A stretch of 64,000 nt of DNA from Blasia pusilla (GCA_050084515.1 CM114271.1:29636001-29700000); one strand, 5' to 3'. Positions 10,020 through 64,000 are shown, counted from the stretch's first letter. The notes: a model not told the origin generated them from the letters alone. Translations and numbers: made by a program.

Positions 10020-10021
10020 AA

Positions 10022-10039
10022 TGGTGCTTCCATTGAGAG
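10022..10039 (+). promoter_or_regulatory. Element C tRNA primer-binding site, probably tRNA-Thr(AGU)
   Basis: TGGTGCTTCCATTGAGAG 2 nt after the LTR; its complement CTCTCAATGGAAGCACCA resembles the plant tRNA-Thr(AGU) 3' end as I recall it (not searched). Confidence 0.7.
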
Positions 10040-10086
10040 CTCTTTGAGGCGGTAGATTGTGTTTGCAAGTTGGAGTCTTATCAAGA

Positions 10087-12382
10087 TGACTACTTTTGGT
10101 AGTACTTCATCAATGGAAAGTGAGGGAGCTAAGGATCTTCTCTGAAATTTGACAACATTGTTGAGTCAACAAGGAGGAGTTCACATAGGAGAGCAAAGAT
10201 CAACAAGGGCTCTTCAAGCGATTGTTAAGAAGGTGGGGAGATTTGATGGGAGGAACATCACCAATTATGTTCGAGAGTACGTATGTGAGATGGAGGTAAA
10301 TCGTGTACCCGAAGGTGATATGGTGTCAAGTTTTGAGTTAGCTGTAATACCAGAGATTCGTAATCAAGTGAAGAAATTGAGAGCAGAAAATCCGATCTTG
10401 TGGGAGGAGTATGAGCAGTTGCTGAAAGGAGAATTCTTCAATGATGATGTGGATGGGGTGACTAAGAGGAGTTTTTTAGAATGGATAGAGCAACGTCCAG
10501 GGAAGGGAATGACTCCAAATAAATTATTGCGTGAGTTTGAGAAGCGGTTTTTTCAACTTTCTTCTTCCGAAAGAGCAACTCTAGACTTGAGGAAAACTGA
10601 GTTATTCCTTGAGGCGGCTGACGAGAATTTGGAGGACAAGCTTTTCATAATGTTGGCGGACAAGACCGAAGAAGGAGGTGTCAACACTAATTGGAAGAAA
10701 GTGGAAGAAGCTGTTGCTATCCTTACAAAGCAAAATCGAAGTAGAGGTAGAACCGCACTATTCAAGTCGGAGGTATTAATTTCAAATCCATTGCCTAAGC
10801 CCGTTTCAACAAAACTTTAAGATTCCGCTATAGATGAGTTGGTGAAAGGTTTGAGAGAATTGAGAGTAGAAATGGCAGAGCTTAAACTTGACAGGAATCC
10901 TAGTGTTGGTGCTCCTTTGACAAGTAGGAACTTTGTGAGAAGATGTATATGGTGTGATAGTGTTGAGCATCAGCGTCGAGAATGTGAGGAGTTTTCAAAA
11001 GCTCTTAGGAATGGAATAGTAAACTTCAAAGATGGGAAGATTCATTCAACGTAGAATGGTATGCCGTTAAATACCAACTTTGGTAGAGGAGGAATGAAAG
11101 GCTTAGTGAGAAGTCAAGTAGGAGTTGCCACTACGGTATTAGATTCTGATACCTTTGCAGTAAAAATAGAAGTGCCTATTGTATCTGTAGCTAAAAGTGA
11201 ATCATTACAATTTCCTCGAAAAGTGATGATACGAGGGGCAGAGACTATCCATCATCTAATTGGATGGGATGATCCAGTGGAAGTTGGGTGTGTTAAAGCA
11301 TACCTAGCACAAGAGAAACATATGAGATGGCAAGATGCTAGTGTGGAGGAGAAGAGGAGACGCGACAATGATGGTGCTGATCTCGAGGAAGCTGCAAGAA
11401 GAGCAAGGACCGTAAGAAGGAAAGGGAAACCAGAGGCGCAACATCAAGAGAAGAAGGGCCTTCTACATCTGAATCTATGATGGATTCTCAAATGAAAGAA
11501 GATGGAATGAAGGAGAAAGAATTGAGGTCTTCCCATAAGACCAAGGGTAAGACTCCTACATACAAGTTGCAGTTTGATATAGAGACAAGCACGAATTTAA
11601 AGGAGATTCTTGAGGAGAGGATTTTGGATGCGAAAATAGAGTTTTCTTTGAGGGAAGTCTTGGGCATAGCCAAACGTGACTTTCATGAGTTGATCATAGA
11701 TGTGATCAAAAGGAAAAGATAGATGACTGCAGATATGGTGATGGTGAGGGCATTGGATACTGACATCACAGAAGAAGAAGATGAACAGCTTTGCCAAGTT
11801 TTTGGACAAAAGCTTGACTTACAAGAAGAAGAGGCGAGAGTAAGAGAAGCCTTGACAGAACAAGGTGAAGAAAGACACAATGGTGGACACTATTCTCGGT
11901 CATATTGGGCGCGTGCAACGACGGAGGCTAGAGTTCGACTCGGCTCTCTCCAAGAGTCAGTTCTGGCTCTCGTTGATCATGGTTCAGAGATCAACATCAT
12001 GTCGCGAAGTGTATACGACAAAGGGATGTGGCCAATTGATACAGGGCATGGATGGGTACTACGACCGGCTAACAACCAAAAAGGTGAACTCTACGATGCT
12101 TGTCCATCCGTCAAAACCCGTATCGGAGATGTGTTAATTGAGCAAAATTTCTTTGTTCAGAATGGAGTTGCTTATCCTTTGATTCTTGGGCAACCTTACA
12201 TCACAGCATCTAGAATGGAGACCAAAGTCATGGATGATGGGTCTCATTATGCCCGTATTAGAAGTCAGGATGGAATAAGATCAGTTCAATTCCTCATTGT
12301 ACGAGTAGGTCATGAAAGGAATAGAGAGAAGTTGAGAGATGGTCCTATGAAGGTAGAGAAAGAGTTTCGGATTTTTAGTTAG
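10087..12382 (+). pseudogene. Element C gag with CCHC knuckle and aspartic protease (disrupted)
   Basis: Gag-like GRFDGRNITNYVREY; knuckle CIWCDSVEHQRREC; protease ALVDHGSEINIMS...LILGQPY; several in-frame stops. Confidence 0.88.
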
Positions 12383-12458
12383 CACTCTTGTAGAGCGGGA
12401 ATATGGGGGTGCAGAGAAAAGAAAGAGTCTTCCGCTAGCATAAGGGGAAGAATCATAT

Positions 12459-15400
12459 ATGTTTAGGTGTGGGTTTTCTCAATGTTTTTCTTCGTGGTCT
12501 AGTAGATTCCAAATGATGAAAGAAATGAATGAAAGGAAAAGCCGTTTTATGAAAAAAAAAGAGGGTTTGTTAAAATGTGAGGGTGTTCTATTAGATGAAG
12601 AGTTCATTAGTGGGATGTATGAAGAAGAGGGTTTTGGAGATAGTCTTGAAGAGGTGTTTTCCCAGATGAGCACCAACCCGCTGGATACAAGTGTGATTGC
12701 AATTCACTCGCGTGAGTTGCATGAAGAGATATCAAGGTTCATGGAAGGAGAACATGAATATGAATCTACGGAGAAGGAAGCGGATGGGCACGTGTTTGAG
12801 TCTGACGAACATCCCATGGAGGCACAAGTGCACACAAAATACAAGAAAGTGGCCCAGAAGGTGAAACCAATGGCTACTCAACTACCAGAGGGTTGTGGGA
12901 GACAAGTAGAACGTGCATCAATAGAGCCAAGTCTGCAGGATGTCAAGATGATAGGACACAAGTTCACTGAAGAGACGCTAGATCATCTGCAAATCGGAGG
13001 GGCTGAGTTTCTCACAGAAATTGAAAGAAAAAGCTTTCTGGAGATGTTAAGGAGACATGGTAAGGCTTTCTCTTTTACTACACAAGAAATTGGTTGTGTA
13101 GACACGAGTGTGGTGGCACCGATGGTAATTTTCACAGTTCCACATGTGCCTTGGGATTTGAAACCCATACCAGTACCACGAGCTATGATTCCCAAGCTGA
13201 TTGAGTTATTGAAGAAGAAGATGCAGATGGGTATCTTAGAGCCATCTATGGGGCCTTACTCGAGTTGATGGTTCACTGTGCCGAAGAAATCAGGAGCTCT
13301 CCGATTCATTCAAGATATGCAATCGGCAAATAAGGTAACCATTCGAAATATGGGAGCGGGGCCTAGAATAGATGAAGTCGCAGAAGCTTTTGAAGCCCGT
13401 GCTATCTATTCTATAGGAGATTTGCACTCGGGATATGATCAATTCCAATTAGCTACAGAGAGTAGAGATATTACCACTATACGCACTCCACTTGGGCTTG
13501 TAAGAATGTGCACATTACCTCAAGGAGCAACAAATTCTGTCGCTCACATGCAGAGTGCAATGAATAAAATCTTGAGAGAGTTGATTCCTGAGAAGACCAT
13601 TGCTTTTGTAGATTATATTCCTATAAAGGGATGTGCAATAGAAGATAGGATTGAGACGGTTGTGAAAGATGGGTGTAGAAAGTTTGTGTCTGATCATATT
13701 CGTGATGTGGATATGATCCTAACAATACTAGAAGAGGTCAATCTTACTCTTTCCGGAGAAAAGTGTAGCTTTGGAGTTCCTCACATTGTGGTAGTGGGTC
13801 ATCTTTGTGGAGAGTTTGGCCGAAAACCAAATCCAGCAAAAGTTGATGTCATCGGAAAGATACGAGAATGCAAAAATGTCACCGAAGTGAGAAGGTTTTT
13901 AGGAGCTTGTGTGTTTTATCAGGTATGGATTCCTCATTTTGGCCACATATCTGATCCTTTGTATGAGCTGTTGAGAAAGAAGAAGAAGTTCACTTGGGAG
14001 AAGAAGCAAAGAGCGGCAATGATGCAGTTGAAGGAGGCATTGAAGTCGCCACCGGTTCTACGACAAATGAGCTACGAATGCGAAAGACCTATTATCATCA
14101 CAGTGGACACTAGCCCTATTGCTATCGGGGCGGTTAAAGGATGACGCGGAAGGAAGAAGATTTGCAACAAGGTTTGGAGCTCGTACACTCACGGAACGAT
14201 AGAGGAGATACCCTCAGGTAAAGAGGGAGCTTTGGGGAGTTGTAACTGCAATGAAAGCTGAGAAGGAGTATCTTATGGGAGCCTATGTATTGCTTGAGGT
14301 TGATTTTCTACCTCTGTTGGGTATGATTGCGAATTGTACGACTCCAGATATAGCCATGCTATGTTGGATAGCCTACATTAGGTCCTTGAATCCACAATTG
14401 AAGCATATAGCTGGGAAAGAGAACTCAGTAGCTGACATGTTGTCTAGAGCTAGATTTAGTCAAGAAGAAGATATGGAGGCAAGTGAGATAGATGAGGATG
14501 ATGCATATGTGTGGCAAGTGTTATCTCAAGAACGAGGTGGCATAGAGGATGTTCTAGCCTTCAAAGAGAATTTGTATGAGGGCAGGTTAAAAGAAATTGG
14601 GCGTTATTTAAGCACTCTGCAAAGAGATGGAGGGTGGACAAAAAAGTTCTTCAAGGAGATTCGGCATAAGGCGTATGGCTATCTACTACAAGATGGGTAT
14701 CTTTGGAAAAGGCCAAAGAGGAAAGATGGAATGCCCTTGAGGGTGGTGGATGACAATAGGACAAAAATGCAAGTGCTCAAAGAATTCCACAATTCTTTAT
14801 GGGCAGGACATAGAGGTACTTGGGCAACTTTCACCAAGATAAAAGAGAGGTATTGGTGGAAAGGCCTATATAAGGATGTTGAGAGATATGTTGGGTCATG
14901 TGTTGAATGTCAGTTTCAATAAAAAATCAGGGTGAGAGATGGACTTAAACCCACATATCCTTTGTCTATTCATCATCAATGGGTTAAAGATCTAGTTGCT
15001 ATGCCACTAGGTCTTTGGGGAATGCGTTACGTGGTCCTAGCACGAGAAGAGTTGTCCAACTTTGTAGAAGGGAGGGCTTTACGGGCTAAACCTATATGTC
15101 GTTTTATTCTAGAGGATATTGTTGCTCGATATGGGAGTGTCGGGAGAATCCGTGTAGATAGAGGTGAGTTGAATGCAGAGGAAGCACGAGAGTTCTTCAA
15201 GAGATATAGAGTCCAGTTGAGATTAACAACCTCCATGAATCCGGAGGCAAACGACAAGAGCGAAAGGGGACATCCGCCAATCATTCAAGCATTGGTAAAG
15301 GCGTGTGGAGATCGTTATGCTGACTAGCCTAGATTTCTTCCATTTGCTTTATGGGCAGATAGAACCACTCATGGCACCGTTACAGGGTTCATGCCTACAG

Positions 15401-15480
15401 AGTTGATGACAGGTCAAAAGTCGATAATTCCAGCAAAAGGAGATATACCCACTTGGATGGGATTGCCGTGGGAAGACGGG
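12459..15480 (+). pseudogene. Element C pol: RT, RNase H, integrase HHCC and core (disrupted)
   Basis: DLHSGYDQF, LPQGATNS, FVDYIPIKG (DD motif mutated), TVDTSPIAIG, NSVADMLSR, H..LWAGH...CVECQ, KSERGH. Confidence 0.92.
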
Positions 15481-16061
15481 TGTCGTGCAAATCCACATCA
15501 TCATACAACATACATCTCTGGCATACCATACTCACATACATACATAACATAGACGAGAGCATCCACAAACACAAGTGTACCACAATTGAAATCCATGAAA
15601 GACCTACTATCATAAAACACGTATAGAATCACATACAATCGAGCCAAACCCACTCCACGATGGGAGAATCTAGGTCGAAGCTTGCGGGAAACACCATAGC
15701 CAAGAGCTCTACTCACTACCAAGGCTAACTCCCAACGCAACAGGCTCAACTCAAAGAACTAACTGTTCTTTGAATGCACTCCACCTTATATCCTCCAACC
15801 TAAGAGCGGGCCCTACTGGAAAAGTCACCCTCAACTGAGTAACCCCCAACCCTATGTATGAAATCGCATCTCTACCTAGACACTACGGCCCTACATAAGG
15901 TATGGCCTCTACTAGCACACTATACTCTACGACATAATCCGTATGGTCATGAGAGCTGTCGTGCGAATCCACATCGTCATACAACATACATCGCTGACAT
16001 ACCTTACTCACATACATACATAACATAGAGGAGAGCATCCATAAACACAAGTGTACCACAA
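15481..16061 (-). repeat. Element B 3' terminus: B1 (16061-15957), GC, A2 (15954-15587), B2 (15585-15481)
   Basis: A 105-bp segment occurs twice (15481-15585, 15957-16061) around a 368-bp segment that matches 25068-25435. Confidence 0.92.
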
Positions 16062-16074
16062 CTCGCCCCCCTAA
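16062..16074 (-). promoter_or_regulatory. Element B polypurine tract
   Basis: TTAGGGGGGCGAG on the minus strand, immediately before B1. Confidence 0.8.
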
Positions 16075-16235
16075 CTGGCGGTTAGGTCCCTCTAACTCCC
16101 AGGTAGCCCTATACATCTACTACATGCTATACATTTTCTTGGGTGAACGAATCAGAAGGCCGGGTGCTAGGTTGCCCCATTGTTAGTCGCACATCTGTAA
16201 TCCATATCATGCAAAGATCAAGTCATCTACCTCTC

Positions 16236-17490
16236 CTAAGTACATCGAGGACAAACCCACCTTCCAGTAGGAACAACATCCATATGTGGAGTCAAACACA
16301 TCATGTGCGAACCCCTAGAACACCGATCACACACCAACATACGGGCTGCGTTACCAGCAGACCCACACAACATGCACCTCAAGCTAGCACGTATCATGAC
16401 TAAGCTTGGGTCAACAGTACCATCCACATTTGGAAGATGACATGGAGCACAATTACACACTCGGTCCTTCCAAACAACTCCATCACGACCCTCCAACATG
16501 AGAACTCCAGAAGCTAACACCTCACGCACTCGTAAAATAGTGCGGCCTGCCATCACATCCAACGTTGTTGGTGCAATCTGCTGCATATAGACATAGTCCC
16601 CCACATGGAACCTACGAATCAATGGTTGATAACCTCCACCCTGAATGGTTGCATACCGCAACGTATCCCTGTGTTGAGCAATGGCAAGATTCTCAAAGGC
16701 TGTTGGCATAACTCTCTGAAAGAGCTCTCCCCGCTGAGAACACATTCTCATCCACATCTCTGGGTCATCAAGGTTCACCACCTCACTAGACTCCCGATGA
16801 ATTGCTGCTGGCAAGTTTGGATCTCGGCCGTATAATATAAAATAAGGTGAGAAGGAAGCCAAGGATGCTTTGCGACTGAACCTATATCCCATGGCTAACC
16901 ATGGCAACTGAATATCCCGGTCTCAAGATGCCCCTTCTGTAGGCCATACTTGCGCAATGCCCTCTTCACCGTCTGAACCACACGCTCAGCCAAACCATCC
17001 GCCTCTGGATGATCTCGAGACGTGGTCCGATGATCAATCAACGCCTTATCACACAAGACCTGAAACTCACCCTGAAACTCTGTAAGCTGGTCGGTAAGCA
17101 CTTCAGCTGGTGCACCAAAATGACTAAGCACTCTATCAAGAAACGCATACGCCGTTCCCTCACTTGCCTTGTCAGGTAATGCCACCAACTCAATCCACTT
17201 GGAGAAGTGCTCCACCATCACCAACACATATTGATGATGTCGTACAGTCAACGATAACGGTCCCGCAAAGTCCACACTCCAATGATAACCCAACCCCATA
17301 ATAGGCAGGGGTGTAACTGTAGTGTAGGGGCATTGAATGATGCCCTCACCCGGTCACAAACTATACAACATGACACCAACTGTTGCACCTGAGTATGCAT
17401 GTCACGCCACCAATACTGACCAAGGAGTAAGCTATACGTACGCTTTACCCCAAAATATCCCAACTCCTCATGGGCATGTCGCACAATGCG
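16236..17490 (-). pseudogene. Element B DDE integrase with C-terminal PHD finger (frameshifted)
   Basis: HAHEELGYFG...CIVCDR; WSVDFAGP, LTDQ, AERVVQT; PHD CMLC...CDRC...H..C...WVCPRC at ~16240-16375. Confidence 0.93.
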
Positions 17491-17496
17491 CTCTCT

Positions 17497-19389
17497 CTAA
17501 GCCAAATGCGGCACTACTCGTACTCTACCATCCTCCCACACACGGAGAATATGTGATCCCTCCAATCGATACCTCTTAGCAAGTTGAAGAACACGGTCTC
17601 GCTCCTTGGCACTCACTATGCCTAGCACCCTACTGGTCCGTAGGAACTCCAACACCAACGCATCATCATGAATATCACGCTGATCCGTACCACCATCTCC
17701 AACCTTAGGATCTAAAGGTTGGCCATCTACCCTCTGACTAGAGTAAGATATCATGTGGTCATCCATACTAGAGTCCACCCCTAACCAACACAAAAAGGCG
17801 GATGCATGCCAACTTGGCACCATCTCCTCATCAACCTCGCCATGCCATCTAGCCCCAATTGTATCCTTTTGGCTAGTACATGGGTTCCTACTCAACCCAT
17901 CAGCATCAAGGTTGGCAACTCCAGGTCTATGTACCACTTGGAAGTCATACTCCTGTAAGATAAGAGCCCACCGTGCAAGCTTCCATGTAAGCTTGTGAGA
18001 CTCCATCAACCACTTGAGCGGCTGGTGATCAATAACAAGGGTAAACTATGTACCAAACAAGTAACACCTAAAGTGTGCCACAGCCCACACTACTGCCAAG
18101 CACTCTCCCTCATATGAACTATAGCGCGACTCCGCTGCATTATTCGAACAACTTGCATAGGCCACCACAAACTCCATGTGCTCATCATCATGTTGTGTCA
18201 ACACCGCTCCAAGTCCCAACCTACTCCAATCAGTGTGTAACTGAAATGGGCGCCCTCTGATAGGTCTCCTTAAGATAGGCGGCGCCACCAACTGGGCCTT
18301 AAGCTCCACAAAAGCTCTCTCATGATCATCTCCCCAGTGCCACTCTTGATCTGATTTCAGAAATTGGTTCAAAGGCTTTGCCATAGCACTAAATCCCTTC
18401 ACATACCTCCGATAGTAGTTCGCCAATCCCATGAATGCTCGAACTCTACTCACATCTACCGGACGCGGAATAAGTGCAATAGCCTCCACCTTTGCTTGCT
18501 GAACTCCCAAACCACCTAGATAGATCACATGACCCAAGTACTCAACATCCTCATGGAAGAACTTACACTTTCCTGGATGCAAACGTAGACCATGAGCTTT
18601 CAACCGCTCAAACATCATCTGCAAATGTATTTGATGCTCCTCCACCATGTTACTGAATACCAAGATATCATCAATGTAACATCGAACAAAATCCAACCAT
18701 GCTAGGATCCTGTCCATCACTCTCTGAAACTCGGCAGGTGCATTCTTCAACCCAAAGGGTAAGAATTTCCACTGGTACAAACAATCCTTGCCATGAGAGT
18801 TGACACCCCAAAATGCTGTCTTGGCCTTGTCACTCTCCCGAATCGGTAATTGATGGTATCCTGCCCGAAGATCCAAAATACTGAAAATCTTTGCCTGTCC
18901 CACCACATCAAAGATCTCCTTAGGTGTAGGCATGGCATACCTATCGGCCTTGGTTTGACGATTGATAGGACGGTAATCTCCACACATCTGCCTATCCGTG
19001 TAGTTGCCATTCATATCCTTTTTAGCAGGCATGACAGTGGCTGATGCATACTCTCCATGCGACAACTCCACTAATCGAGCCTCCAAAAGGTCCAACGTCC
19101 TACTCTAAATCAGGTCCCTCTCCATATCACTATATCGGTAGGGATGACGGAAGATTGGCGTATCACTAGCCAAATCAATCCGTATATCGGGTCCAACCAG
19201 AGCACCCAACTCCTTCATGCTAAAGGCAAAATAACTCCTATAAGCACGTAGGAACTGTCTCAAGCGTCGTTTCTTCACCTCCCGTAAGCTTGGGCCCAAG
19301 TAATGGCTCCCAAGTCTCCTCCACTGGCACACTAGAGGGAGAGGACGATGCCATTTGCTGCTACGCAAACCCCTCACAAGATGGTACAC
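17497..19389 (-). pseudogene. Element B reverse transcriptase, RNase H and linker
   Basis: DLRAGYHQ, LPFGLKNAP, YIDDILVFS, LHTDWS, YEGECLAVVWAV, NLDADGLSR. Confidence 0.95.
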
Positions 19390-19574
19390 CCTTAGCTACA
19401 CCATCATCTGAGCAACCAACTCCACATGCCCAACCATTACATCCCATTTACTCCAAGGATGCAAAATACTACTCTCCTTGCCCCCAGCCCATGCCTCTAC
19501 CGTCTTGGTAGCCATCGAGCTCATTACAAGGGGTGGAAGATCCACAAACGTAGTGCGGAGTCGTATTTTGGCCA

Positions 19575-20535
19575 TACCAAGACTCAAAATCCAAGTCAAA
19601 CAATTCAAGTCCATGGCCTGACCCAACACATGACGTCGTGAAGCCTCAGAAATGGAAGCAACCGTTGTCACACTAGTAGCAAATCCAATCACACGCTCTC
19701 TCTCATCAACGTTAGGCTCCACCAACTATCGTACATGAGAATCCCATACAAGCCCGGGACCACCTTCCCTGTAGGCATGTGACCAGGGAAAACTCACAAA
19801 TGTGGGTAGTGCCATCCTAGGCTAGCCCACACGGTTCACCACTGCCATGGGTGACCGATCAATAACCCTCACCACTTGAGAAAGTCGCCCAGTATCCAAG
19901 ATACTATCCACTGTAAGGCAAGGATCCTGCTGCACTGCATCATATGCTCGACGTAGAACCTCCCTAGGCAACAAGTTTGTCCACCATAAGCGTGGACGAT
20001 GTGCACGCGAGCCAACTCGCGCTGCATCCAACAACACCGCTGGTCCAATCCAAGACCGCACCTCATGAACACTCGCCATCATCCGGGTCCGAGTGTCACC
20101 CAACAATGGAACATTCTCCAGAATGTAAGCGGGAGCACGTGCCTGATGAACCTGAAGATGTCGTAACACCCGTAACATCTCCCAAAAAAATCGAGACCTA
20201 GGGTCGTGTAATCCCTCACCACGACCAGCACGTGTATGACCCTGACATGGCCATCCAGCAATCACCAATTCCACAGGACCAACCTTCTCAAAGTCATGCG
20301 CCCCCAACAATACAATGTGTGACGGCAAAGCACGCTGGTACCCACGAATAGCGGATGGCGGCAACAACTCAGGATATCTCCGCATCAACTGACCAATATG
20401 TCGGGATGAGACTCTCTGGGTCGTCTCATCTCGCTCCACATACATGTATCTCCGCACAGGAATACCGGCCTGCAACACTCCAGCCAAACCAGTGCTTATC
20501 CCACCAAAGAGATCTAACACACAAATGCCCTCCGG
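19575..20535 (-). pseudogene. DNMT3-like C5 cytosine DNA methyltransferase domain inside the polyprotein, between protease and RT
   Basis: Motif I VLDLFGGISTG, IV IAGWPCQG, VI ILENV, VIII DAARVGSRAHRPRLWWTNL, IX ERERVIGF, X RRHVLGQAMDL; two in-frame TAG stops. Confidence 0.92.
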
Positions 20536-20829
20536 CGGATACTGCCATACAATGGGTGTAGTATCCGAAGGGGATAACCCAACTGGACCAGAAGTAGGAG
20601 TCCGCCGTGGGGCCTCCTCTTCCTCGTGAGGTATATGACCTCACACCAAGCCTCTGCACTAGGCGTCGCCTCTGCCGTAATGCACCGCCTGAACTCCAAA
20701 GTGGCACATCCAACGATGAGGATGCCATTGCTGTAAAAATAGGGACCTCCTCTACCTCCTCATGCACAGGAGAATCCATAGCAGAAACATTATCCGCCAA
20801 AAAGTCTCCTGACCAAGTAACTACTCCAC

Positions 20830-21298
20830 TAAAACCAGCCACAAATGCTAACACTGTTGGGGAAGACCCTCTTGGTTGAGCCCCATAAATAAATCTCACA
20901 GGAACTTGGCTCATACGTCCATCCCCGGACTGCCAACCAGGTCTATAAGACGTTGTTTCAGTCCAGTAATCCATCTGAAAACCCATCAGGTACAATACTG
21001 CTCCTCCAACTAGTACATCATACGACTCGGCTAATGTGACTATCGCAGATACTCCCAACCGGGAGCTATCAATCACATGATCTGGTCTCAACTGTACAGA
21101 AAACTTCTCCCGTGTCATGAATTGAGACCTACCATTGGCTCCTCCAAGTGATGTTTGAATTTGGAATGGGCAAGGCTCAAGCTCTGACCTCCGAATACCC
21201 AAACCAATACATGCCGCCTTTCCCAACATCAAAGGTTGGGCACCAGAGTCTAACAAGACTCTATATGGTCTATACACCTGTCCTGTAGGACTCACCAA
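20830..21298 (-). pseudogene. Element B aspartic protease
   Basis: RVLLDSGAQPLMLG...YDVLVGG. Confidence 0.85.
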
Positions 21299-23434
21299 TC
21301 AGAATATCCCACTCCGATTGTCCAACATACATACACCAGGTGTAAGCCTCTCACGATCAATGGGTGGCCGGGTTGGTAATGCATCCATCTTCGCCGCTGC
21401 TGCCTCCCAAGTAGCACTGGTACTCAATGCTACACCTAATATAGAGGGTCCCTCCACCGCAACACCCTCATCCACCTCACCACGTGCAGCAGTAACATCC
21501 CCATGTTCACACAACGTGGCTGCTAGCTGAAATACAAGAGCTAAGTCAACCCCTAAAGCCATCAGCTCCGTTGCCGAAAATAATGGGGATCCCAACACTG
21601 GAGTTGCCATCCGCAATACTACACTAGATGCTGCATCCGTGTCTACTACACGCGATGTAGATGCCTCAATCCCCATTGTCGGCTCAATAGGCTGCGTAGG
21701 AACCATGGATGGAGTCCTAAGCACCTCAGACAACAAGAATGACTGGGGAAGCCTAGCCTGCCTCCTAGCCTCACCTCTCTGTGGATCCAACTCCATAGTA
21801 GCACCCCGTGGCTCTGACGCTCGAGTGGCTCCTCTCGTAACTGCAGTCGATGCCTCAACCTGTGCTGCACTCGCCATATAAGAGAGATCATCCCCTCCAT
21901 AAGAGGTGGAAGCCCCTGCTCCCGAACTCTATGTTGGATACCAGCCATAGTAGCCAACCTCTGCTCCAACTGCTCAATCCTGGTAGCCATAGTAGCCAAC
22001 TTCTGCTCCAATTTCTCAATCCTGGCAGCCATAGCTGACTCTGTCGTAGTGGTAGGGGTAGCCACTGTAGGCTCTCTAACCACTGGTCCACCTCTACCAC
22101 CCCTATCACCTCTAGCACCTCGGCCTCTTGGAGCTACTCCACCACGGCCGCAGCCTGATCTCAACTCTGGATGAAGATCAAAGCAACGCTCTCGAGGATG
22201 ACCTGGTCTCCCATAATGATCACACTAAGTTGGGGCCGACTGAGGCCCATCCTCCAAAGTCCGTCTCCCATCCTCTTGGGGACAAAACTTCCTAACATGA
22301 TCACCTCCACATGTCCAACATGCTTGTCCTTGCTGCGGGGCAGCAAATGAAGGCAATGGTCTCTACGCAAGTGTCCCTCTAGGACCTGATTGAGGTCGTG
22401 TGTACCCCCCACGACTCCCACTACTACTACCACCACCACTACTACGAGACTGTGAGGTGGGTTGCTGAACACGAGAAGTAGTAGTTGTATCCCTACCGAA
22501 TGCGGATGTCACCACTCTCTCCTTCACCATGTTAAGCTCAATCTTCTCAGATAGAGCAAACACATGGGTCAATGTGGATGAATCATCACTCAGAAGAGTA
22601 GCATCACGTACCCTGCGGCGCAACTCTCTGTCCAAGATCCCATATATCAAAACTGGAGTGTCTGAGCCTCAATCACACCCTGGGTGACTGAAATCAAGCG
22701 TCGCATACGAGTGTATGCCTCACGAAGACTCTCACCAGTCTTTCGCTCAAATTCTTGAAGACTCCTCAACTTCTCTATCTTCACTCCCTGATAGTTTTTC
22801 TTCAACCTCTTGAAGAACTCTGCAACCACGCTAAACGATGGTTGGGCACTAGTACACTAGTACCCCCACTGGTACCTCCACTGGTACTCCCACTCCGGCT
22901 CGTACTCGTACCACTCAACGTCGGGCTGGCTGGCATAGTAGGAGCACTACTACCAGTACCACCATGGGTGATAGACACATAGCCTGGTGACCAATATTGT
23001 CTCCATGCCTCAATCTCAGCAACATGGTCCTTCCTAAACTCATGGTAATCATCCATGGGTGGTCCCTCCAAGTGCTGAAACAACCCCTTCCAAGCCAAGA
23101 AGGGTGTAAACAACGTGGCGTTCCGCAACATCTGCATATCACACCACGTATCAAACTCCTGCATGAAGTCCTCCAACTCAATGGTGCCCACTGCACCCGA
23201 GTATCGTCGTGGGCCCTTCATGGCCCCATATATCCCATCCATGTTTCAAATCAATGGAGCTGCAACACTTGATAACAACGTAGAAGACTCGATGTTTGGA
23301 ACGCCCTCGTCCTCCTCTTCATCAACCGTCGGAAGTGGAAAAGGTAGCCGATACCTAAATCCACTCCGTGTGAAACCACCACTGTCCACACCACAGTCCC
23401 CAACCAGACCACCCGACAGCTCCATGATGACCAA
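21299..23434 (-). pseudogene. Element B gag, with two zinc knuckles, an RGG stretch and a coiled-coil repeat (fragmented)
   Basis: PRRYSG...LEDFMQEFDTWC; RKTGESLREAYTRM; knuckles CWTCGGDHVRKFC and CDHYGRPGHPRERC at ~22180-22325. Confidence 0.8.
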
Positions 23435-24202
23435 CGCCGATGCTGCACCATCACCACCAAATTATCACCACTAAGTAACCAAGTGACGTCGATGTCGCTA
23501 TACTATTCTAGCTCTACTAGCTATGGGTGTAGGCAACCTAACCTGTCATCACCACAAGAAGCCTCCCACGGTCTACTGGTCATCACTCTAGCCTCTATCG
23601 GTAGCACACAGGAGTAACACTACTCTGGAAATCAGCGTCAACCCTAACAATGGGCGCGCAAGCAAGAAGCAACGATGGAGGGGATCCAAACACAGGAAGT
23701 CCAACGACAACCCTCCAATCGCAAATGGAAATCAAGGTAACACAATCCACAAACATGGCGCCCCCTGAATCCACAAAACCCACCACAAAATTCTAACGCA
23801 ATAGCTACTGTGCCGCGGGTCGATGACGTGCTAGTCGAACTCGCAGCACCTGAAAATATCACCTGCATGGAGAGGCTACAGCGTACTACGCGCTAGAGGT
23901 CCATCAACCAAAACCCTGAGATGAGATGCATAAAGCGCCTAATACCTCTCCGAATAGCACCAAATGAGCTACACCAGTGTGTACATTGGCATAGTTAAGA
24001 ACTCAGCAATTAAGCGTCTTCCAGGCAGAATAGCCCAAAGATGGGTGACCACTTATGCAACACTCAAATCACAAATCCTGCAAAAACTACCTCATGCCCA
24101 AGCAAGCAAGCTTGCTTGCTTGCCCCTTGCTCCTTACTCTGCCTCTCATGCCCACTCGCCCCGAGCTACCACGAGTTGCCTCGAAGCCTCAAAACGCCGA
24201 GA

Positions 24203-24342
24203 AATGCCCTTATCGCCCCGTTCGGCATGCTTCGTTATGGAGAGAGGCCCAACCAAGGCGCCCCCAAATGCTCGAGACATGCCCCTATTGCCCCGTTCGC
24301 CACGCTTCGCTATGGAGAGAGGCCCAACCAAGGTTCCCCCAA
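24203..24342. repeat. Two ~75-bp tandem copies in the element B leader
   Basis: atgccc.tat.gccccgttcg.ca.gcttcg.tatggagagaggcccaaccaagg occurs twice. Confidence 0.8.
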
Positions 24343-25053
24343 CGGGATAGGCATCTCCAACAATGAACGAGTCACCAACCAACCAGCCCCTCCGATCTGC
24401 TGTCACCACCACCTTGAGCTATGTTTCGATCACAATTAAAAATCAGCAAAATTGAATCTGTTTTGACTAGAATTTAATTGACCACCATAGCTATGTTTCC
24501 ACAAAAAATCAGCTATAATTGAGCTCTGTACTCCGAGCTAAAAATCAAACAAACTTGCTGTCCATACACCTCAAGAATCACAGCGCTTTCGCCCAGTTTC
24601 ATGAACGCGGAAAGCCGCAACGCTCCACACACTCGAGCGGATATCTTCACATGAGATCACAATACAAGTAGCAATAGGAACCTCTCACCCGATCTGGATG
24701 AACTTCAACAGAACTTCCGCACTCCAAGCTCTCCACATCAGAAAACCGTCGAACACGAACCAAAATCTTCAATCCTTGATAACTTCCAACTCCCTTGACA
24801 AAATCCGGCGATCTAAAGCACGTTGGAAAGCTCTTAGCAAGGTGCTTCTTTCCCAACCAAACCACGCACCGTATTCACACCGCCGCCGCTCCTTGTAGCA
24901 GTCTCCCTTGTGCTACCACTTGGGGTCGCACCGCCTCCCGCGTAGGATCCGTCACTACAACATAGGCCACAAGCCACGAACATCCACGGCTGAGTACACA
25001 ATCAGCCCTAACTAGATCCTACTGATCCACAATCAAAGCTACCATCGATCTAG

Positions 25054-25068
25054 GTCAGTTCTTTGAGT
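25054..25068 (-). promoter_or_regulatory. Putative self-priming primer-binding site, element B
   Basis: Minus-strand ACTCAAAGAACTGAC abuts A1 and pairs (one G:U) with GTTAGTTCTTTGAGT at 25244-25230, just downstream of ATATAA (25272-25267). Confidence 0.75.
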
Positions 25069-25435
25069 GAAATCCGTGAAAGACCTAATATCATAAAACA
25101 CGTATAGAATCACATACAATCGAGCCAAACCCACTCCACGATGGGAGAATCTAGGTCGAAGCTTGCGGGAAACACCATAGCCAAGAGCTCTACTCACTAC
25201 CAAGGCTAACTCCCAACGCAACAGACTCAACTCAAAGAACTAACTGTTCTTTGAGTGCACTCCACCTTATATCCTCCAACCTAAGAGCGGGCCCTATTGG
25301 AAAAGTCACCCTCAACTGAGTAACCCCCAACCCTATGTATGAAATCGCATCTCTACCTAGACACTGCGGCCCTACATAAGTTATGGCCTCTACTAGCACA
25401 CTATACTCTACGACATAATCCGTATGGTCATAACA
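25068..25435 (-). repeat. Element B 5' terminal repeat, segment A1 only (368 bp)
   Basis: Matches 15587-15954; no B segment adjacent. Confidence 0.92.
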
Positions 25436-25439
25436 CGGG

Positions 25440-25841
25440 CTCGATAGGAAAGAGCTCCTAGCACTCCGAATGCAGCAGCTAGAGCGGCGGGAAGAAGATA
25501 TTGCAGAAGCATTAGTCAAAATGAAGGAAGCAAGGTTGAAAAATAAGGAGCGCTTTGACAAAACGCATCGACTTCGGAAGGAGCCTATAAGAGAAGGAGA
25601 TTGAGTCTTGGTGCACGACAATAGCCTCGACAACCAGCATAGTATAATTAAGAAGTTTGCACGTTGTTGGTTTGGTCCATACGTTGTAATCTTTGCTTTT
25701 GACAATGCCACTTATAAATTACGTGAACTAGATGGCACAATTCTCAAGTTGCCAATTGCAGGAAAAAGGGTCAAGATTTTCCGTAGACGTGAGGGATTTC
25801 TTGATTTCGATTCAATCTGTCTAGAGGCACAACAAAAATAA
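25440..25841 (+). pseudogene. Element C integrase C-terminus (GPY/F region; no chromodomain seen)
   Basis: LDRKELLALRMQQLERREE...WFGPYVVIFAFDNATYKLRELDG. Confidence 0.85.
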
Positions 25842-25915
25842 GTTTGAGTAAAATACCAAGAAGTCTCGATGTTTTTGGCACATATCGGAGGATGTGCAGG
25901 TTTGGAGGGGGTGAA

Positions 25916-27191
25916 TGTCGTATAGTAAAATCAGCTAGTGTGTAAACTCCTTCCTCGTTAAGTGTTAGATAGAGTTTTATAAGTATTAAATAAATTAGCT
26001 TAGGAAAAGGAAATCCCCATGTTTAAACCTCTTTATGATGCCTCTTTTATGCGGGCCCAACTTTAGAAAAGAGGTAATAAATAAAAGATGACTTTATAAA
26101 AGTAAAGTAGTGAGGTTTGTGCTTTAATGAAAATCAAAATTAGGCTTGGTTGGTGGCTAGGTTAGTTGGGGTAATTTGGAAAATATCAAGTGGATAAAAG
26201 AGGATATTTTGGAAGAGATAAGAGGAAATCTACTTGTGTCAAAATATGATTGGCTAAGCCTTGAGAGGAAGCCATATGGCACAAGATAAGATTAGCTCTA
26301 TTTCGTACTCTTGTGGCTCTCTTGTGAGTATATAAAGAGGAGGGACCTTCAAGGGTTCATCACCTTCTATTCCATATCTTGAGTCTTTCGTGTCACTCTT
26401 GAATGTATGACTTTGGGATTGCTTGCTCTTCCAATGAGAGTGGATCATCCCTCTTGGGAGAGTAACTTGACCATGGTCTATTCTTTGAGAGGTTTCTAGA
26501 GTGCGGTGTGTGTGTGGAGATGAGAGGTTTGTCACCTTAGAGGAGTTTAGTCATACTAAAATAGTGAATTTTTTGGCTTGTTACTTCCCCAATGAGAGTG
26601 GATTAGCTCTCTTGGGAGAATAACTCCGCCAGAACCCATTCTTGAGGAGAGTAGAGAATGTCTATCAAGCATGGATAGGGGTGGAGCACAAGTTGTGCCC
26701 GACTTTCCTTTCCTTAATCCATACCATGTCAAGATACTCTTTGTAGATAGGCACTGGTTCACTTGCTATTTAGTTTATCACTTTGGGGAGGCGTTCATAA
26801 CCAGGTCATTCAATCTCCAACTGCGGTGACCCTTCCTATCGTCACATATGGAAGGACATGGGATTATACTTTGTATGTCCTTATATAGAAATCCATGGAC
26901 GTCAATAGGCCTGCTCAAGTAGGGTTTAATACTAGTTGTGCTATCTTCCTCGTATACAAGTTTAAAATACTCTATAGGGATTTTATAGTTAGGAATTTCG
27001 GGGCCCGATGTTACGAAGAAGTGATCGCCTCGGCACTTCCATTTGTGATACCTGTCGTGAGAGAATGGAGAGTATACATAATAACTTTATATTGAAAAAG
27101 GAGATCTTCTCAGAGAATTCATCTTGCATCGACCGCGTCTGCTGCAGCTAGAAGGCCTGCCCTTACTCGAAGAAAGGCTCTCGACACGACA
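25916..27191 (+). repeat. Element C 3' LTR, preceded by PPT GGAGGGGGTGAA (25904-25915)
   Basis: Same length and termini as the 5' LTR. Confidence 0.95.
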
Positions 27192-40340: not shown

Positions 40341-40575
40341 CTAGGATGCGCCACATACTCGGTTTGGTGTACAAAGATGACATTGACGCACTCCCTACTA
40401 CCTTGGGCTCCTCTAACCCATCATGACCTGGTACAAAGGTCTTTTTCCACACCATCTGCATGTCCTCATCAGCTAAGCATTGATGCTCCTCACTCAAGCC
40501 CCACAAAGGCACCTCTCATCCATGAGATGATGTTCTTACCATAAAACTCCTCTCCTTAGGAGTATTAGTCATGGG

Positions 40576-62196: not shown

Positions 62197-64000
62197 TGTC
62201 GTGCGAATCCACATCATCATACAACATACATCGTTGACATACCATACTCACCTACATACATAACATAGACGAGAGCATCCACAAACACAAGTGTACCACT
62301 ATTGAAATCCGTGCAAGACCTACTGTCATAAAACACATATAGAATCACATACAATCGAGCTAAACCCACTCCACAATGGGAGAATCTAGGTCGAAGCTTG
62401 CGGGAACCACCATAGCCAATACCTCTACTCACTACCAAGGCTAACTCCCAATGCAACAGGCTCAACTCAAAGAACTAACTGTTCTTTGAGTGCACTCCAC
62501 ACTATATCCTCCAACCTAAGAGCGGGCCCTACTGGAAAAGTCACCCTCAACAGAGTAACCCCCAACCTTATGTATGAAACCGCATCTCTACCTAGACACT
62601 ACGACCCTACATAAGGTACGGCCTCTACTAGCACACTATACTCTATGACATAATCCAAATGGTCATGACAACTGTCGTGCGAATCCACATCATCATACAA
62701 CATACATCGGTGACATACCATATTCACCTACATACATAACATAGACAAGAGCATCCACAAACACAAGTGTACCACAACTCGCCCCCCTAACTGGCGGTTA
62801 GATCCCTCTAACTCCCAAGTAGCCTTATACATCTACTACATGCTATACACCTTCGTGGGTGCACGAATCATAAGGCCGGGTGCTAGGTTTCCCCATCGTT
62901 AGTCGCACATCTGTAATCCATATCATGCAAAGATCAAAACATCTACCCCTCCTAAGTACATCGAGGACAAACCCACCTTCCAGTAGGAACAACATCCATA
63001 TGTGGAGTCAAACACATCATGTGCCAACCCCTAGAACATCGATCACACACCAACATACGGGCTGCGTTACCAGCAAACCCACACAACATACACCTCAAGC
63101 TAGCACGTATCATGGCTAAGCTTGGGTCAACAGTACCATCCACATTTGGAAGATGACATGGCGCATAATTACGCACATGGTCCTTCCAAAAAACTCCATC
63201 ACGACCCTCCAACATGAGAACTCCAGAAGCTAACACCTCGCGCACTCGTAAAATAGTGCGGCCTGCCATCACATCCAACGTTGTCTGTGCAATCTGCTGC
63301 AAATAGACATAGTCCCCCACATGGAACCTACAAATCGATGGTCGATAACCTCCACCCTGAATGGTTGCATACTGCAACGTATCCCTGTGTTGAGCACTGG
63401 CAAGATTCTCAAAGGCTGTTGGCATAACTCTCCGAAAGAGCTCTGCCTGCTAAGAACACACTCTCATCCACATCTCTGGGTCGTCAAGGTTCACCACCTT
63501 ACCAGACTCCCAACGAATTGTTGCTGGCAAGTTTGGATCTCGGCCGTCTAACAGAAAATAAGGTGAGAAGGAAGCCAAGGATGCTTGGTGGCTGAACCTA
63601 TATCCCATGGCTAACCATGGCAACTGAATATCCCAGTCTCCAAGATGCCCCTTCTGTAGGCCATACTTGCGCAATGCCCTATTCATTGTCTGAACCACAC
63701 ACTCAGCCAAATCATCCGCCTCTTGATGATCTCGAGACGTGGTCCGATGATCAATCAACGCCTTGTCACACAAGACCTGAAACTCACCATGAAACTCTGT
63801 ACCCTGGTGGGTCAGCACTTCAGCTGGTGCACCAAAATGACTAAGCACTCTATCAAGAAATATATACGCCGTTCCCTCACTTGCCTTGTCAGGTAATGCC
63901 ACCAACTCAATCCACTTGGAGAAGTGCTCCACCATCACCAACACATATCGATGATGTCGTACATTCAACGGTAACGGTCCCGCAAAGTCCACACTCCAAC
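62197..64000 (-). mobile_element. 3' part of a second family B element: integrase-PHD, PPT, B1 (62777-62673), A2 (62670-62303), B2 (62301-62197); runs off the window
   Basis: Colinear and highly similar to 15481-17280, including the B-A-B terminus; PHD CMLC...CDRCSRGWHMMC...WVCPRC. Confidence 0.92.

What the first reader, a model, noticed from the sequence alone, without database searches (positions are those of the whole stretch)
19575..20535. DNMT3-like cytosine methyltransferase embedded in a gypsy polyprotein
Seen: motifs I, IV (catalytic PC), VI, VIII, IX and X appear in standard order between protease and RT. DAARVGSRAHRPRLWWTNL and ERERVIGF parallel the DNMT3 stretches DAKEVSAAHRARYFWGNL and EMERVFGF. 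The order is not the circularly permuted one of plant DRM. Established: DNMT-carrying retrotransposons have been reported in Symbiodinium and in the charophyte Klebsormidium (de Mendoza et al. 2018, from memory). I am not aware of this being characterised in land plants. Inference: the domain is released by the protease, packaged, and methylates the element's cDNA or target. This copy has stops and a frameshift.
Basis: partly seen in the sequence, partly recalled or inferred. Interest (0 to 1): 0.88.

Follow-up and report, generated by a model that had tools for sequence, protein, structure and literature searches.

The report
Retrotransposon carrying its own DNA methyltransferase
This is a decayed copy of a jumping gene that encodes its own DNA-methylating enzyme, a kind first described in a freshwater alga and seen here, with family members still transcribed, in a host whose closest named relatives are mosses and liverworts.

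Summary
On the minus strand, window 15481-25435 is a 9,955-bp Ty3/gypsy-type element with a 4-bp target duplication. It is nested in another gypsy element. Its single gag-pol frame reads gag, protease, C5 cytosine methyltransferase, RT/RNase H, DDE integrase, PHD finger.

The methyltransferase (about 19561-20529) passes Pfam PF00145. Its best solved relatives, by sequence and by predicted fold, are DNMT3A/3B/3C, with motifs I to X in the unpermuted order.

This copy is dead: two in-frame stops lie inside the domain, more lie downstream, and there are frameshifts. The domain is still a selected part of the lineage:
- 203 full-length homologues keep the catalytic Cys (200/203), ENV Glu (203/203) and RxR (199 and 202/203).
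- dN/dS against 12 related loci is 0.25, versus 0.65 and 1.14 for frame-shifted controls.
- Stranded RNA reads of the same species label cover the whole element, almost all from other copies.

Named relatives are all bryophytes (Marchantia, Calypogeia, Sphagnum, Riccia). The termini have the unusual A-coding-B-A-B layout reported for Klebsormidium KnitGypsy-Dnmt3.

Verdict: a new member, from a land plant, of a known kind. What the enzyme methylates is inference.

The parts
15481..25435 (-). Whole element, 9,955 bp, ends TGT...ACA. It is inserted in the integrase of an outer plus-strand gypsy element.
   Evidence: Self-BLAST and sequence. I read the outer integrase frame by eye; it is continuous once the insert and one copy of the 4-bp duplication are removed.
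25436..25439 (-). Target-site duplication CCCG, 5' copy
15477..15480 (-). Target-site duplication CCCG, 3' copy
25068..25435 (-). 5' repeat B' (LTR-like), with TATAA at 25271-25267 and the self-primer stretch AGTTCTTTGAG at 25241-25231
   Evidence: 98% identical over 364 nt to 15587-15950
25057..25067 (-). Primer-binding-like site CTCAAAGAACT directly after B', complementary to 25241-25231
   Evidence: The same arrangement occurs with other letters in L021, and over 14-16 nt in L011.
21646..23245 (-). gag region; zinc-knuckle remnant at about 22224-22183
   Evidence: ORFs; compared by eye with P0056 and P0014; no Pfam gag family matched
20641..21298 (-). Protease-like region (LLDSGAQ)
   Evidence: no Pfam hit here, but relatives P0037 and P0046 carry PF13650
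19561..20529 (-). DNMT3-like C5 cytosine methyltransferase domain, interrupted by two in-frame TAG codons (19824-19822, 19728-19726)
17947..19104 (-). Reverse transcriptase (YIDD) and RNase H-like domain
   Evidence: RVT_1 1.4e-32, RT_RNaseH_2 3.3e-29, RT_RNaseH 1.4e-06
16895..17496 (-). Integrase: zinc-binding region and DDE core, with frameshifts
   Evidence: rve 3.1e-14; frames
16236..16922 (-). Integrase C-terminal region ending in a PHD finger (about 16376-16242)
   Evidence: PF00628 PHD 1.2e-10
16062..16072 (-). Purine tract AGGGGGGCGAG directly upstream of repeat A'
   Evidence: the same tract stands before A' in L011 and L021
15957..16061 (-). Internal repeat A', ending ...ACA, followed by GC and then repeat B
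   Evidence: 93% identical to 15481-15585
15587..15954 (-). 3' repeat B
15481..15585 (-). Terminal repeat A, ending ...ACA at the element's 3' end
62197..63999 (-). 3' part of a second copy of the same family (A-B-A, then the integrase end); it runs off the window
   Evidence: 94% identical to 15481-17282

Best explanation
**What it is.** Window 15481-25435 (minus strand) is a dead copy of a Ty3/gypsy-type retrotransposon family. Its single gag-pol frame carries a DNMT3-type de novo cytosine-5 methyltransferase between protease and reverse transcriptase, and a PHD finger after the DDE integrase.

**Shown here.**
- The methyltransferase is an inherited, selected part of pol in this lineage, not a passenger of this copy.
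- The family is diversified, its named hosts are all bryophytes, and relatives of this copy are transcribed in the host.
- It has the A-coding-B-A-B repeat layout described for Klebsormidium KnitGypsy-Dnmt3.

**Inferred lineage.** I read it as the land-plant branch of that Gypsy-DNMT3 lineage.

**How it most likely works (inference, about 40%).**
1. The polyprotein is cut by the element's protease.
2. The methyltransferase travels with RT and integrase in the particle.
3. It methylates the newly made cDNA, or the fresh insertion, so that the copy enters the genome already carrying the host's own mark.
4. The PHD finger on integrase reads chromatin for target choice.
5. Reverse transcription is probably self-primed, as in Tf1.
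For: **Domain identity**
- Pfam PF00145 is above its cut-off.
- PDB by sequence: DNMT3A 6.7e-13, DNMT3B 1.2e-10, DRM 2.3e-05, M.HaeIII 1.9e-03.
- PDB by family profile: DNMT3A 1.3e-30, DNMT3B and 3C 3e-28, DRM 2.7e-17 to 3e-15, M.HhaI 8e-10. No DNMT1 or CMT chain is among the 54 matches.
- AlphaFold model: pLDDT 86.7, pTM 0.86.
- All 35 Foldseek rows listed, down to rank 49, are DNMT3A, 3B or 3C. The best is 6w89_A, E 4.5e-18, target TM 0.83.

**Part of pol**
- The domain shares its frame with RT.
- Of the 56 metagenome loci, 36 show protease before the methyltransferase, 31 show RT after it, and 0 show RT before it.
- The same order is seen in Marchantia, Calypogeia and Sphagnum proteins.

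**Selection**
- In 203 full domains of 31-79% identity: catalytic Cys 200, ENV Glu 203, Asn 196, RxR 199 and 202, motif I Gly 202, motif II acid 203.
- dN/dS of the window against 12 non-redundant loci has a median of 0.25 (0.19-0.34). Frame-shifted controls give 0.65 and 1.14. The other domains give RT 0.16, IN 0.20, PR 0.26, PHD 0.32.

**Expression**
- In three stranded RNA runs of the same species label, depth over the three methyltransferase bins is 35-90 on one strand against 0-4 on the other.
- All 30 bins are covered in each of the three runs.

**Same lineage as KnitGypsy-Dnmt3**
- The layout B-internal-A-B-A is seen here, in L011 and in the distant L021, each with a 4-bp duplication.

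**Self-priming**
- An 11-16 nt complement of the site after B' lies within B. It is 29-30 nt downstream of TATAA in the window and L021; in L011 the only TATAA is about 130 nt upstream.
- L021 keeps the pairing with different letters.
Against: - No copy with an uninterrupted methyltransferase frame was seen in DNA. In the window copy and all 56 metagenome loci, the longest stop-free stretch overlapping the domain is 290 aa.
- Among the 10 non-redundant close copies (45 pairs), dN/dS for the domain is 0.59, no different from the frame-shifted controls at 0.57 and 0.66. Recent history is therefore neutral decay, and selection shows only on the deeper branches.
- Only 25-43 of about 4,400-4,800 RNA reads per run are at least 99% like this copy. 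I could not see whether the transcribed copies are intact.
- The direction of the RNA rests on the usual library convention, which I did not verify for these runs.
- I had no Klebsormidium or host DNMT3 sequence, so 'same lineage' rests on the repeat layout alone. One origin against two for the domain's two positions in pol is undecided.
- A third of the homologues (66 of 203) have Glu instead of Pro before the catalytic Cys.
- Nothing here shows what is methylated.
Confidence: 0.8

Rival explanations
1. The enzyme is active, but it serves self-restraint or target marking rather than camouflage. It methylates the new insertion or neighbouring DNA so that the copy is silenced at once or sits in heterochromatin. 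This lowers harm to the host and so favours the family.
For: The PHD reader sits on integrase in the same polyprotein. The window copy and all 56 metagenome loci are heavily decayed. CpG observed/expected is 0.61 in the element, the same as in the whole window. de Mendoza 2018 raises this possibility in its Discussion.
Against: No methylation data were available. The family is transcribed, so silencing is not complete. The CpG depletion is not specific to the element.
Confidence: 0.25
2. The domain acts on RNA, or has a structural and non-catalytic role in the particle.
For: DNMT2 shows that this fold can methylate RNA; this point is recalled, not from a call. de Mendoza 2018 proposes RNA methylation for the LINE-borne enzyme that failed to methylate DNA in yeast. 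Of 203 homologues, 66 have Glu instead of Pro in the PC dipeptide.
Against: The nearest relatives by sequence and fold are DNA enzymes of the DNMT3 type. DNMT2 scores only 3.5e-06 against 1.3e-30 for DNMT3A. The catalytic Cys, ENV and RxR are nearly invariant.
Confidence: 0.08
3. An independent capture of a host DNMT3 by a bryophyte gypsy lineage, unrelated to the Klebsormidium elements.
For: The domain sits at two different places in pol in the wider set: PR-DNMT-RT and RT-DNMT-IN. A single branch separates the two, with support 98 on both sides of the midpoint root in FastTree and SH-aLRT 99 in IQ-TREE. Such domains have therefore moved or been captured more than once. de Mendoza 2018 itself documents recurrent capture.
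Against: The rare A-coding-B-A-B layout combined with a DDE integrase is shared with the description of KnitGypsy-Dnmt3. RT, integrase and PHD of both architectures are clearly homologous, with RT E-values of 1e-67 to 1e-103.
Confidence: 0.12
4. An artefact or one-off: a host DNMT3 gene broken by transposon insertions, a chimeric assembly, or a neutral passenger of this copy alone.
For: This copy has stops and frameshifts.
Against: The domain shares the RT's frame, with no repeat or junction between them. The same order holds wherever neighbours could be seen in 56 independent loci, with none reversed, and in proteins of four bryophyte genera. dN/dS is 0.25.
Confidence: 0.02

Closest known systems
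KnitGypsy-Dnmt3 of Klebsormidium nitens (de Mendoza et al. 2018, PMC5890265; passages and the Discussion read)
   Same: A non-permuted DNMT3-type domain inside the Pol frame of an LTR gypsy element. Repeats are laid out as in DIRS elements (A-coding-B-A-B) while the domains are gypsy-type. Key catalytic residues are kept. There is purifying selection: the paper gives Ka/Ks < 0.2; here it is 0.25 on the deeper branches.
   Different: The host relatives here are land plants (bryophytes), not a charophyte alga. The domain order of the Klebsormidium element is not given in the text I could read. The figure and the supplements were not available, so position in pol and sequence kinship could not be compared. 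The 4-bp target duplication, the PHD finger and the self-priming site are not mentioned in the passages I saw.
Animal DNMT3A/3B/3C catalytic domains (solved structures)
   Same: They are the best sequence and fold matches. Motifs I-X are collinear, with the shared stretches around RxR-W-xNL and E-x-ERxxGF.
   Different: Identity is only 20-24%. There is no PWWP or ADD domain beside it. The window's domain has a longer insert between motifs VIII and IX (about residues 225-305), with its own conserved ALPT stretch. It is part of a retrotransposon polyprotein.
Plant DRM (DRM2, NtDRM)
   Same: The next-best solved relatives (2.7e-17 to 3e-15 with the profile), from the DNMT3-related group.
   Different: DRM is circularly permuted. 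Only the part of the window's domain holding motifs I to VI matches, and it matches the C-terminal end of the DRM chains. The window's domain is not permuted.
SymbioDIRS-Dnmt3 and DIRS/Ngaro-type elements
   Same: The A-coding-B-A-B repeat layout, and a DNMT3-type domain in Pol for the Symbiodinium elements.
   Different: Those elements use a tyrosine recombinase. This one has a DDE integrase (rve) and makes 4-bp target duplications.
Tf1/sushi-type self-priming gypsy elements (recalled, not from a call)
   Same: A single gag-pol frame, and a site next to the 5' repeat that is complementary to the predicted first bases of the transcript.
   Different: A PHD finger stands where chromoviruses have a chromodomain. 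It carries the extra methyltransferase and has the split repeats.

Membership tests
C5 cytosine methyltransferase (Pfam PF00145) | Profile match above the curated cut-off | tested here: met
   34.6 bits against a cut-off of 22, E 1.9e-08. Only profile positions 62-120 of 324 were matched.
C5 cytosine methyltransferase (Pfam PF00145) | Motif I (FxGxG), IV (PC), VI (ENV), VIII (RxR), IX and X present in canonical order | tested here: met
   two in-frame stops interrupt the region between VIII and IX in this copy
DNMT3 group | Closest solved relatives by sequence and by fold are DNMT3 enzymes | tested here: met
DNMT3 group | Falls inside the DNMT3 clade in a phylogeny with DNMT1, CMT, DRM, DNMT5 and bacterial enzymes | not testable with these tools
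   No host DNMT3, DRM or other named eukaryotic sequences could be fetched. Only the best 150 of 2,928 hits were listed, and most of them are long polyprotein-sized sequences.
DNMT3 group | Companion reader domains beside the catalytic domain (PWWP/ADD in animals; a DUF in land plants, per PMC12344493) | tested here: not met
   Pfam finds only PF00145 in the 414-residue stretch. The only reader is a PHD finger far downstream, after integrase.
Plant DRM | Circularly permuted motif order | tested here: not met
   Collinear with DNMT3A. DRM chains match only with their C-terminal part.
Ty3/gypsy LTR retrotransposon | Pol order PR-RT-RNase H-IN with a DDE integrase | tested here: met
   the order is seen
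Ty3/gypsy LTR retrotransposon | Short target-site duplication and TG...CA ends | tested here: met
   CCCG here, AAGG in L011, TTTG in L021
Ty3/gypsy LTR retrotransposon | Two identical LTRs as the two termini | tested here: not met
   The termini are B...A-B-A
Gypsy-DNMT3 (KnitGypsy-Dnmt3) | DNMT3-type domain within the Pol frame of a gypsy element | tested here: met
Gypsy-DNMT3 (KnitGypsy-Dnmt3) | DIRS-like repeat layout A-coding-B-A-B | tested here: met
   against the paper's legends
Gypsy-DNMT3 (KnitGypsy-Dnmt3) | Sequence kinship with the Klebsormidium copies | not testable with these tools
   No hit carried a Klebsormidium name. The supplements were closed.
DIRS-type elements | Tyrosine recombinase, no target duplication | tested here: not met
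   rve integrase; 4-bp duplications

The most novel reading that the evidence does not exclude
Bryophyte genomes hold a diversified and still transcribed lineage of gypsy elements. Each carries a writer (a DNMT3-type enzyme) and a reader (a PHD finger). Each inserts, through a DDE integrase, a DNA that is circularly permuted relative to the ordinary LTR-internal-LTR product. The purine tract precedes A' and the primer site follows B', so reverse transcription should yield [A-B]-internal-[A-B]. The genomic form B-internal-A-B-A is what results if a two-LTR circle is opened at the internal ...ACA-NN-TGT... junction, which reads ACAGCTGT (a palindrome) in L011 and ACAGCTCT in this copy. If so, these elements would integrate from a circle junction and would methylate their own cDNA. 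Their enzyme could also add to de novo methylation in the host.
Probability: 0.15. Interest if true: 0.75.

Novelty: new member of a known kind. Interest (0 to 1): 0.5.

Why it matters
Cytosine methylation is the host's main weapon against transposons, so a transposon that carries its own de novo methyltransferase turns the usual picture round. Until now, the text I could read tied the gypsy form to one charophyte alga. Three consequences follow from finding a diversified family whose relatives are transcribed, in a host whose nearest named relatives are mosses and liverworts.
- The question becomes testable in tractable land-plant models such as Marchantia.
- Counts and trees of 'DNMT3' genes in bryophyte annotations contain transposon copies.
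- It gives several natural cases of the odd split-repeat termini joined to a DDE integrase. That replication puzzle has no worked-out mechanism.

Tried and rejected
- **Whole genome.** None is held for this window, so copy census, intact copies and host DNMT3 could not be sought in the host.
- **Naming the distant relatives.** The listing of cluster members on 10 proteins gave no organism names. The third homologue search, on P0150, gave 64 hits, none with an organism name. The hosts of the RT-DNMT-IN group stay unknown, and no Klebsormidium sequence was found.
- **Protein atlas.** The natural relative P0003 gave only C5-methylase clusters, the nearest one Streptophyta.
- **Sequencing runs.** No RNA holder was listed among the indexed runs. 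The RNA evidence comes from three raw-read runs of the same species label, laid.
- **Read variants at the stops.** Only 40 of 1,411 differences were shown, and none falls on the stop codons. Whether transcribed copies are open there is unknown.
- **Molecule ends at 15793.** I could not tell whether the pile of ends there (28 of 96 and 24 of 97) is a poly(A) site or reads clipped where copies differ, so I make no claim from it.
- **dN/dS among close copies.** It showed no selection (0.59 against controls of 0.57 and 0.66). Only the deeper comparisons do. Comparisons with the far families L014, L017, L021 and L025 were saturated in frame and gave no value.
- **Programmed frameshift.** I considered reading the protease/methyltransferase frame change this way and rejected it. 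Relatives P0002, P0004, P0124 and P0125 read through, and L005, L009, L010 and L011 keep one frame.
- **Canonical LTR readings.** LTR = A+B or LTR = B+A both fail. The 5' end lacks A in the window, L011 and L021, and the 4-bp duplications flank the start of B and the end of A.
- **Literature.** None found a paper describing these elements in bryophytes. The library lacks most subscription journals and the supplements were closed. The supplementary trees of PMC5890265 and PMC12344493 may include such copies.

Full report
**1. What is at the coordinates**

The minus strand of 16236-23245 carries a run of long frames. Pfam names four of them:
- PF00145 DNA_methylase in 19822-20640 (E 1.9e-08, 34.6 bits against a cut-off of 22).
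- RVT_1 (1.4e-32) and RT_RNaseH_2 (3.3e-29) in 18046-19104.
- rve (3.1e-14) in 16895-17353.
- A PHD finger (1.2e-10) at the end of 16236-16922.

The frame upstream (20426-21298) holds LLDSGAQ and aligns with relatives that carry an aspartic-protease family.

The methyltransferase frame runs directly into the RT frame. In-frame stops lie at 19824-19822, 19728-19726, 19398-19396, 19107-19105, 18048-18046, 17499-17497 and 17250-17248, and integrase has further frame changes. One frame change separates the protease and methyltransferase frames near 20645-20635. It is not programmed: relatives read straight through, and four related loci keep one frame.

**2. Which methyltransferase**

Read through with X at the stops (P0001), the domain's best solved relatives by sequence are DNMT3A (6.7e-13) and DNMT3B (1.2e-10). 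Plant DRM (2.3e-05) and M.HaeIII (1.9e-03) follow.

A profile of 45 family members sharpens the ranking:
- DNMT3A 1.3e-30
- DNMT3B and 3C 3e-28
- DRM 2.7e-17 to 3e-15
- M.HhaI 8e-10
- DNMT2 3.5e-06
- No DNMT1 or chromomethylase chain among the 54 matches.

The AlphaFold model is confident (pLDDT 86.7, pTM 0.86). All 35 Foldseek rows listed, down to rank 49, are DNMT3A, 3B or 3C, and the best has E 4.5e-18 and target TM 0.83.

So 'DNMT3-like, not permuted like DRM' holds by sequence and by fold. A clade test against host enzymes was not possible, because no host DNMT3 sequence could be fetched.

**3. The element**

Self-comparison and the sequence give, on the minus strand:

TGTT-B' (25435-25068), internal part, A' (16061-15957), GC, B (15954-15587), A (15585-15481) ending ACA.

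- B' and B are 98% alike over 364 nt. A' and A are 93% alike over 105 nt.
- CCCG flanks both ends (25439-25436 and 15480-15477).
- The interrupted host sequence is the integrase of an outer plus-strand gypsy element (LTRs 8744-9828 and 25916-27000, 98% alike). Read by eye, its reading frame closes exactly when the insert and one CCCG are removed.
- A second copy at 62197-63999 (94% alike) shows the same A-B-A at its 3' end.

The same layout, each time with a 4-bp duplication, is found in L011 (AAGG) and in the distant family L021 (TTTG). A-B-A 3' ends also occur in L016 and L017. This is the 'A-coding region-B-A-B' layout that de Mendoza et al. 2018 describe for DIRS elements. Their Fig. 4c legend says the Klebsormidium gypsy elements share it.

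The enzyme of integration here is a DDE integrase, not a tyrosine recombinase.

**4. Is the domain a selected part of the lineage?**

*Breadth.* The close search found 145 proteins. The search for longer proteins found 32, of which 14 are Marchantia polymorpha gene models and one is from Sphagnum fallax. All named hits are bryophytes: Marchantia, Calypogeia, Sphagnum and Riccia. The exhaustive search found 2,928 proteins at E<=1e-3 and 227 at E<=1e-30.

*Order.* Of the 56 metagenome loci, 36 show protease before the methyltransferase, 31 show RT after it, and none has RT before it. Six show the methyltransferase alone.

*Residues.* In 203 full-length domains of 31-79% identity:
- catalytic Cys 200
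- ENV Glu 203 and Asn 196
- RxR 199 and 202
- motif I Gly 202
- motif II acid 203
- the Pro before the Cys is Pro in 128 and Glu in 66.

Of the eight named bryophyte proteins with a full domain, four keep all 12 residues checked: Mp_4g09160, MARPO_0091s0058, MARPO_0008s0049 and the Calypogeia protein.

*Substitution rates.* The window copy against 12 non-redundant loci gives a median dN/dS of 0.25 (0.19-0.34) for the methyltransferase. The same columns read one or two bases out of frame give 0.65 and 1.14. For comparison, RT gives 0.16, integrase 0.20, protease 0.26 and PHD 0.32.

*Evidence against.* Among the close copies themselves (45 pairs) the value is 0.59, the same as the controls. Neither the window copy nor any of the 56 loci has a stop-free stretch over the domain longer than 290 aa. 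Selection is therefore visible on the deeper branches, where active lineages evolved. The copies in hand have since decayed neutrally. Open frames across the domain do exist among database proteins called on short contigs, namely P0002, P0003, P0124 and P0126.

**5. Expression**

The DNA run X1 holds 53% of the element's sampled words. At 90% likeness or more, 213,845 of its contig pieces lie on the element, so the family is abundant there. The tool warns that this is not a copy number.

Three stranded RNA runs of the same species label cover all 30 bins. First-mate-on-plus depth is 4-200, against 0-12 on the other strand. In the three methyltransferase bins (19535-20521) the depths are 35-90 against 0-4. 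By the usual convention this means RNA of the element's own sense; I did not verify the convention for these libraries.

Only 25-43 of about 4,400-4,800 reads per run are at least 99% like this copy, so the transcripts come from other copies. Some reads join 16708 to 17714, or 16626 to 23156, which shows that deleted derivatives are transcribed too.

**6. How it probably replicates**

Directly after B' lies CTCAAAGAACT (25067-25057). Its complement AGTTCTTTGAG lies in B' at 25241-25231, 30 nt downstream of TATAA (25271). L011 has the same pairing over 14-16 nt, although its only TATAA is about 130 nt upstream of the complement. L021 keeps the pairing with different letters (AATCACCAAAAGT and ACTTTTGGTGATT), 29 nt downstream of a TATAA. 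That covariation supports self-priming of the Tf1 type, where the first bases of the transcript fold back on the primer site. The Tf1 mechanism itself is recalled, not taken from a call.

A purine tract (16072-16062) precedes A', not B. Ordinary reverse transcription should then give [A-B]-internal-[A-B], whereas the genome holds B-internal-A-B-A. The internal A'|B junction has the form ...ACA-NN-T.T... It reads ACAGCTCT in this copy, ACAGCTGT (a palindrome) in L011, and ACAAATGT in L021. The genomic form is what one gets by opening a two-LTR circle at that junction. This is my inference and is not shown.

**7. Wider picture**

Among the fetched proteins the domain sits in two places in pol:
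- PR-DNMT-RT-IN-PHD, which is this family and all 56 loci.
- RT-DNMT-IN-PHD, which covers most distant hits.

In a tree of 147 domains, one branch separates 26 rows of the first type from 121 of the second. FastTree support is 98 on both sides of the midpoint root. IQ-TREE gives SH-aLRT 99 on a subset of 60 rows, with 87 rows left out by random choice. Ten of the 26 rows have no known neighbours and were assigned by the first tree. The tree is unrooted, so one capture plus a move, or two captures, remain open.

**8. Literature**

- de Mendoza et al. 2018 (PMC5890265; passages and the Discussion read) describe KnitGypsy-Dnmt3 in Klebsormidium. They report kept catalytic residues and Ka/Ks < 0.2, and they leave the role open: self-methylation of cDNA, protection from editing, effects on the insertion site, or self-restraint.
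- A 2026 preprint (10.64898/2026.05.21.726589, passages) writes 'streptophytes (Gypsy-DNMT3)'.
- None of my 10 searches found a description in bryophytes. Supplements were closed and may hold such copies.

**9. Verdict**

The copy is dead, but it belongs to a selected, diversified and transcribed family. It is a land-plant member of a known kind. What the enzyme methylates, and how the split repeats are regenerated, remain inference.

Noticed in passing
window 15481-16072 and 25057-25439; L011 1672-2017 and 10238-10805; L021 7245-7531 and 15075-15554: The termini are B-internal-A-B-A with 4-bp target duplications (CCCG, AAGG, TTTG) and TGT...ACA ends, together with a DDE integrase. The purine tract precedes A', not B. 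The internal A'|B junction is ...ACA-NN-T.T...: ACAGCTCT here and the palindrome ACAGCTGT in L011. No standard LTR replication scheme yields this form. It equals a two-LTR circle opened at that junction.
   Followed up: partly
window 25057-25067 with 25231-25241; L011 and L021 likewise: The bases right after the 5' repeat are complementary to a stretch inside the repeat. That stretch lies 29-30 nt downstream of a TATAA in the window and L021; in L011 the only TATAA is about 130 nt upstream. L021 keeps the pairing with different letters. This looks like Tf1-type self-priming.
   Followed up: partly
window 39234-40425 (minus strand), with RT near 38390-38917: A second, much more decayed gypsy relic carries a methyltransferase only 34-44% identical to the first. 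Its catalytic PC is changed to SF. Two divergent DNMT-bearing families therefore lie in one 64-kb window.
   Followed up: partly
window 8744-27000: The outer plus-strand gypsy element (LTRs 8744-9828 and 25916-27000, 98% alike) was split in its integrase by the DNMT-bearing element. This is a nested insertion.
   Followed up: partly
proteins P0148, P0150, P0160 and about 100 others: Most distant homologues have the methyltransferase between RNase H and integrase (RT-DNMT-IN-PHD) instead of between protease and RT. One tree branch separates the two arrangements. Their hosts are unnamed.
   Followed up: partly
alignment of 203 domains, column of window residue P131: Of 203 homologues, 66 have Glu instead of Pro before the catalytic Cys (W-E-C-Q). 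This is unusual for C5 methyltransferases.
   Followed up: no
window 15481-25435 and 9829-15480: There is strong strand asymmetry on the coding strand of both elements: G 30.8% against C 18.5%, and G 27.1% against C 15.6%. CpG observed/expected is 0.58-0.61 throughout.
   Followed up: no
window 16626-23156 and 16708-17714 (RNA joints): RNA reads join these points (5, 5 and 4 reads; 16, 29 and 45 reads in the three runs). Internally deleted derivatives of the family are therefore transcribed.
   Followed up: no
window 24187-24336 and 23438-24958: The long leader between B' and gag holds a 75-bp tandem duplication. It differs among copies: RNA joints skip 657 and 97 bases, and RNA depth is low there.
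   Followed up: no
window about 22183-22224 (minus strand): The gag zinc knuckle reads CDHYGRPGHPRERC, where the Marchantia relative P0056 has CDHCGRAGHTRDRC. The second Cys is lost in this copy.
   Followed up: no
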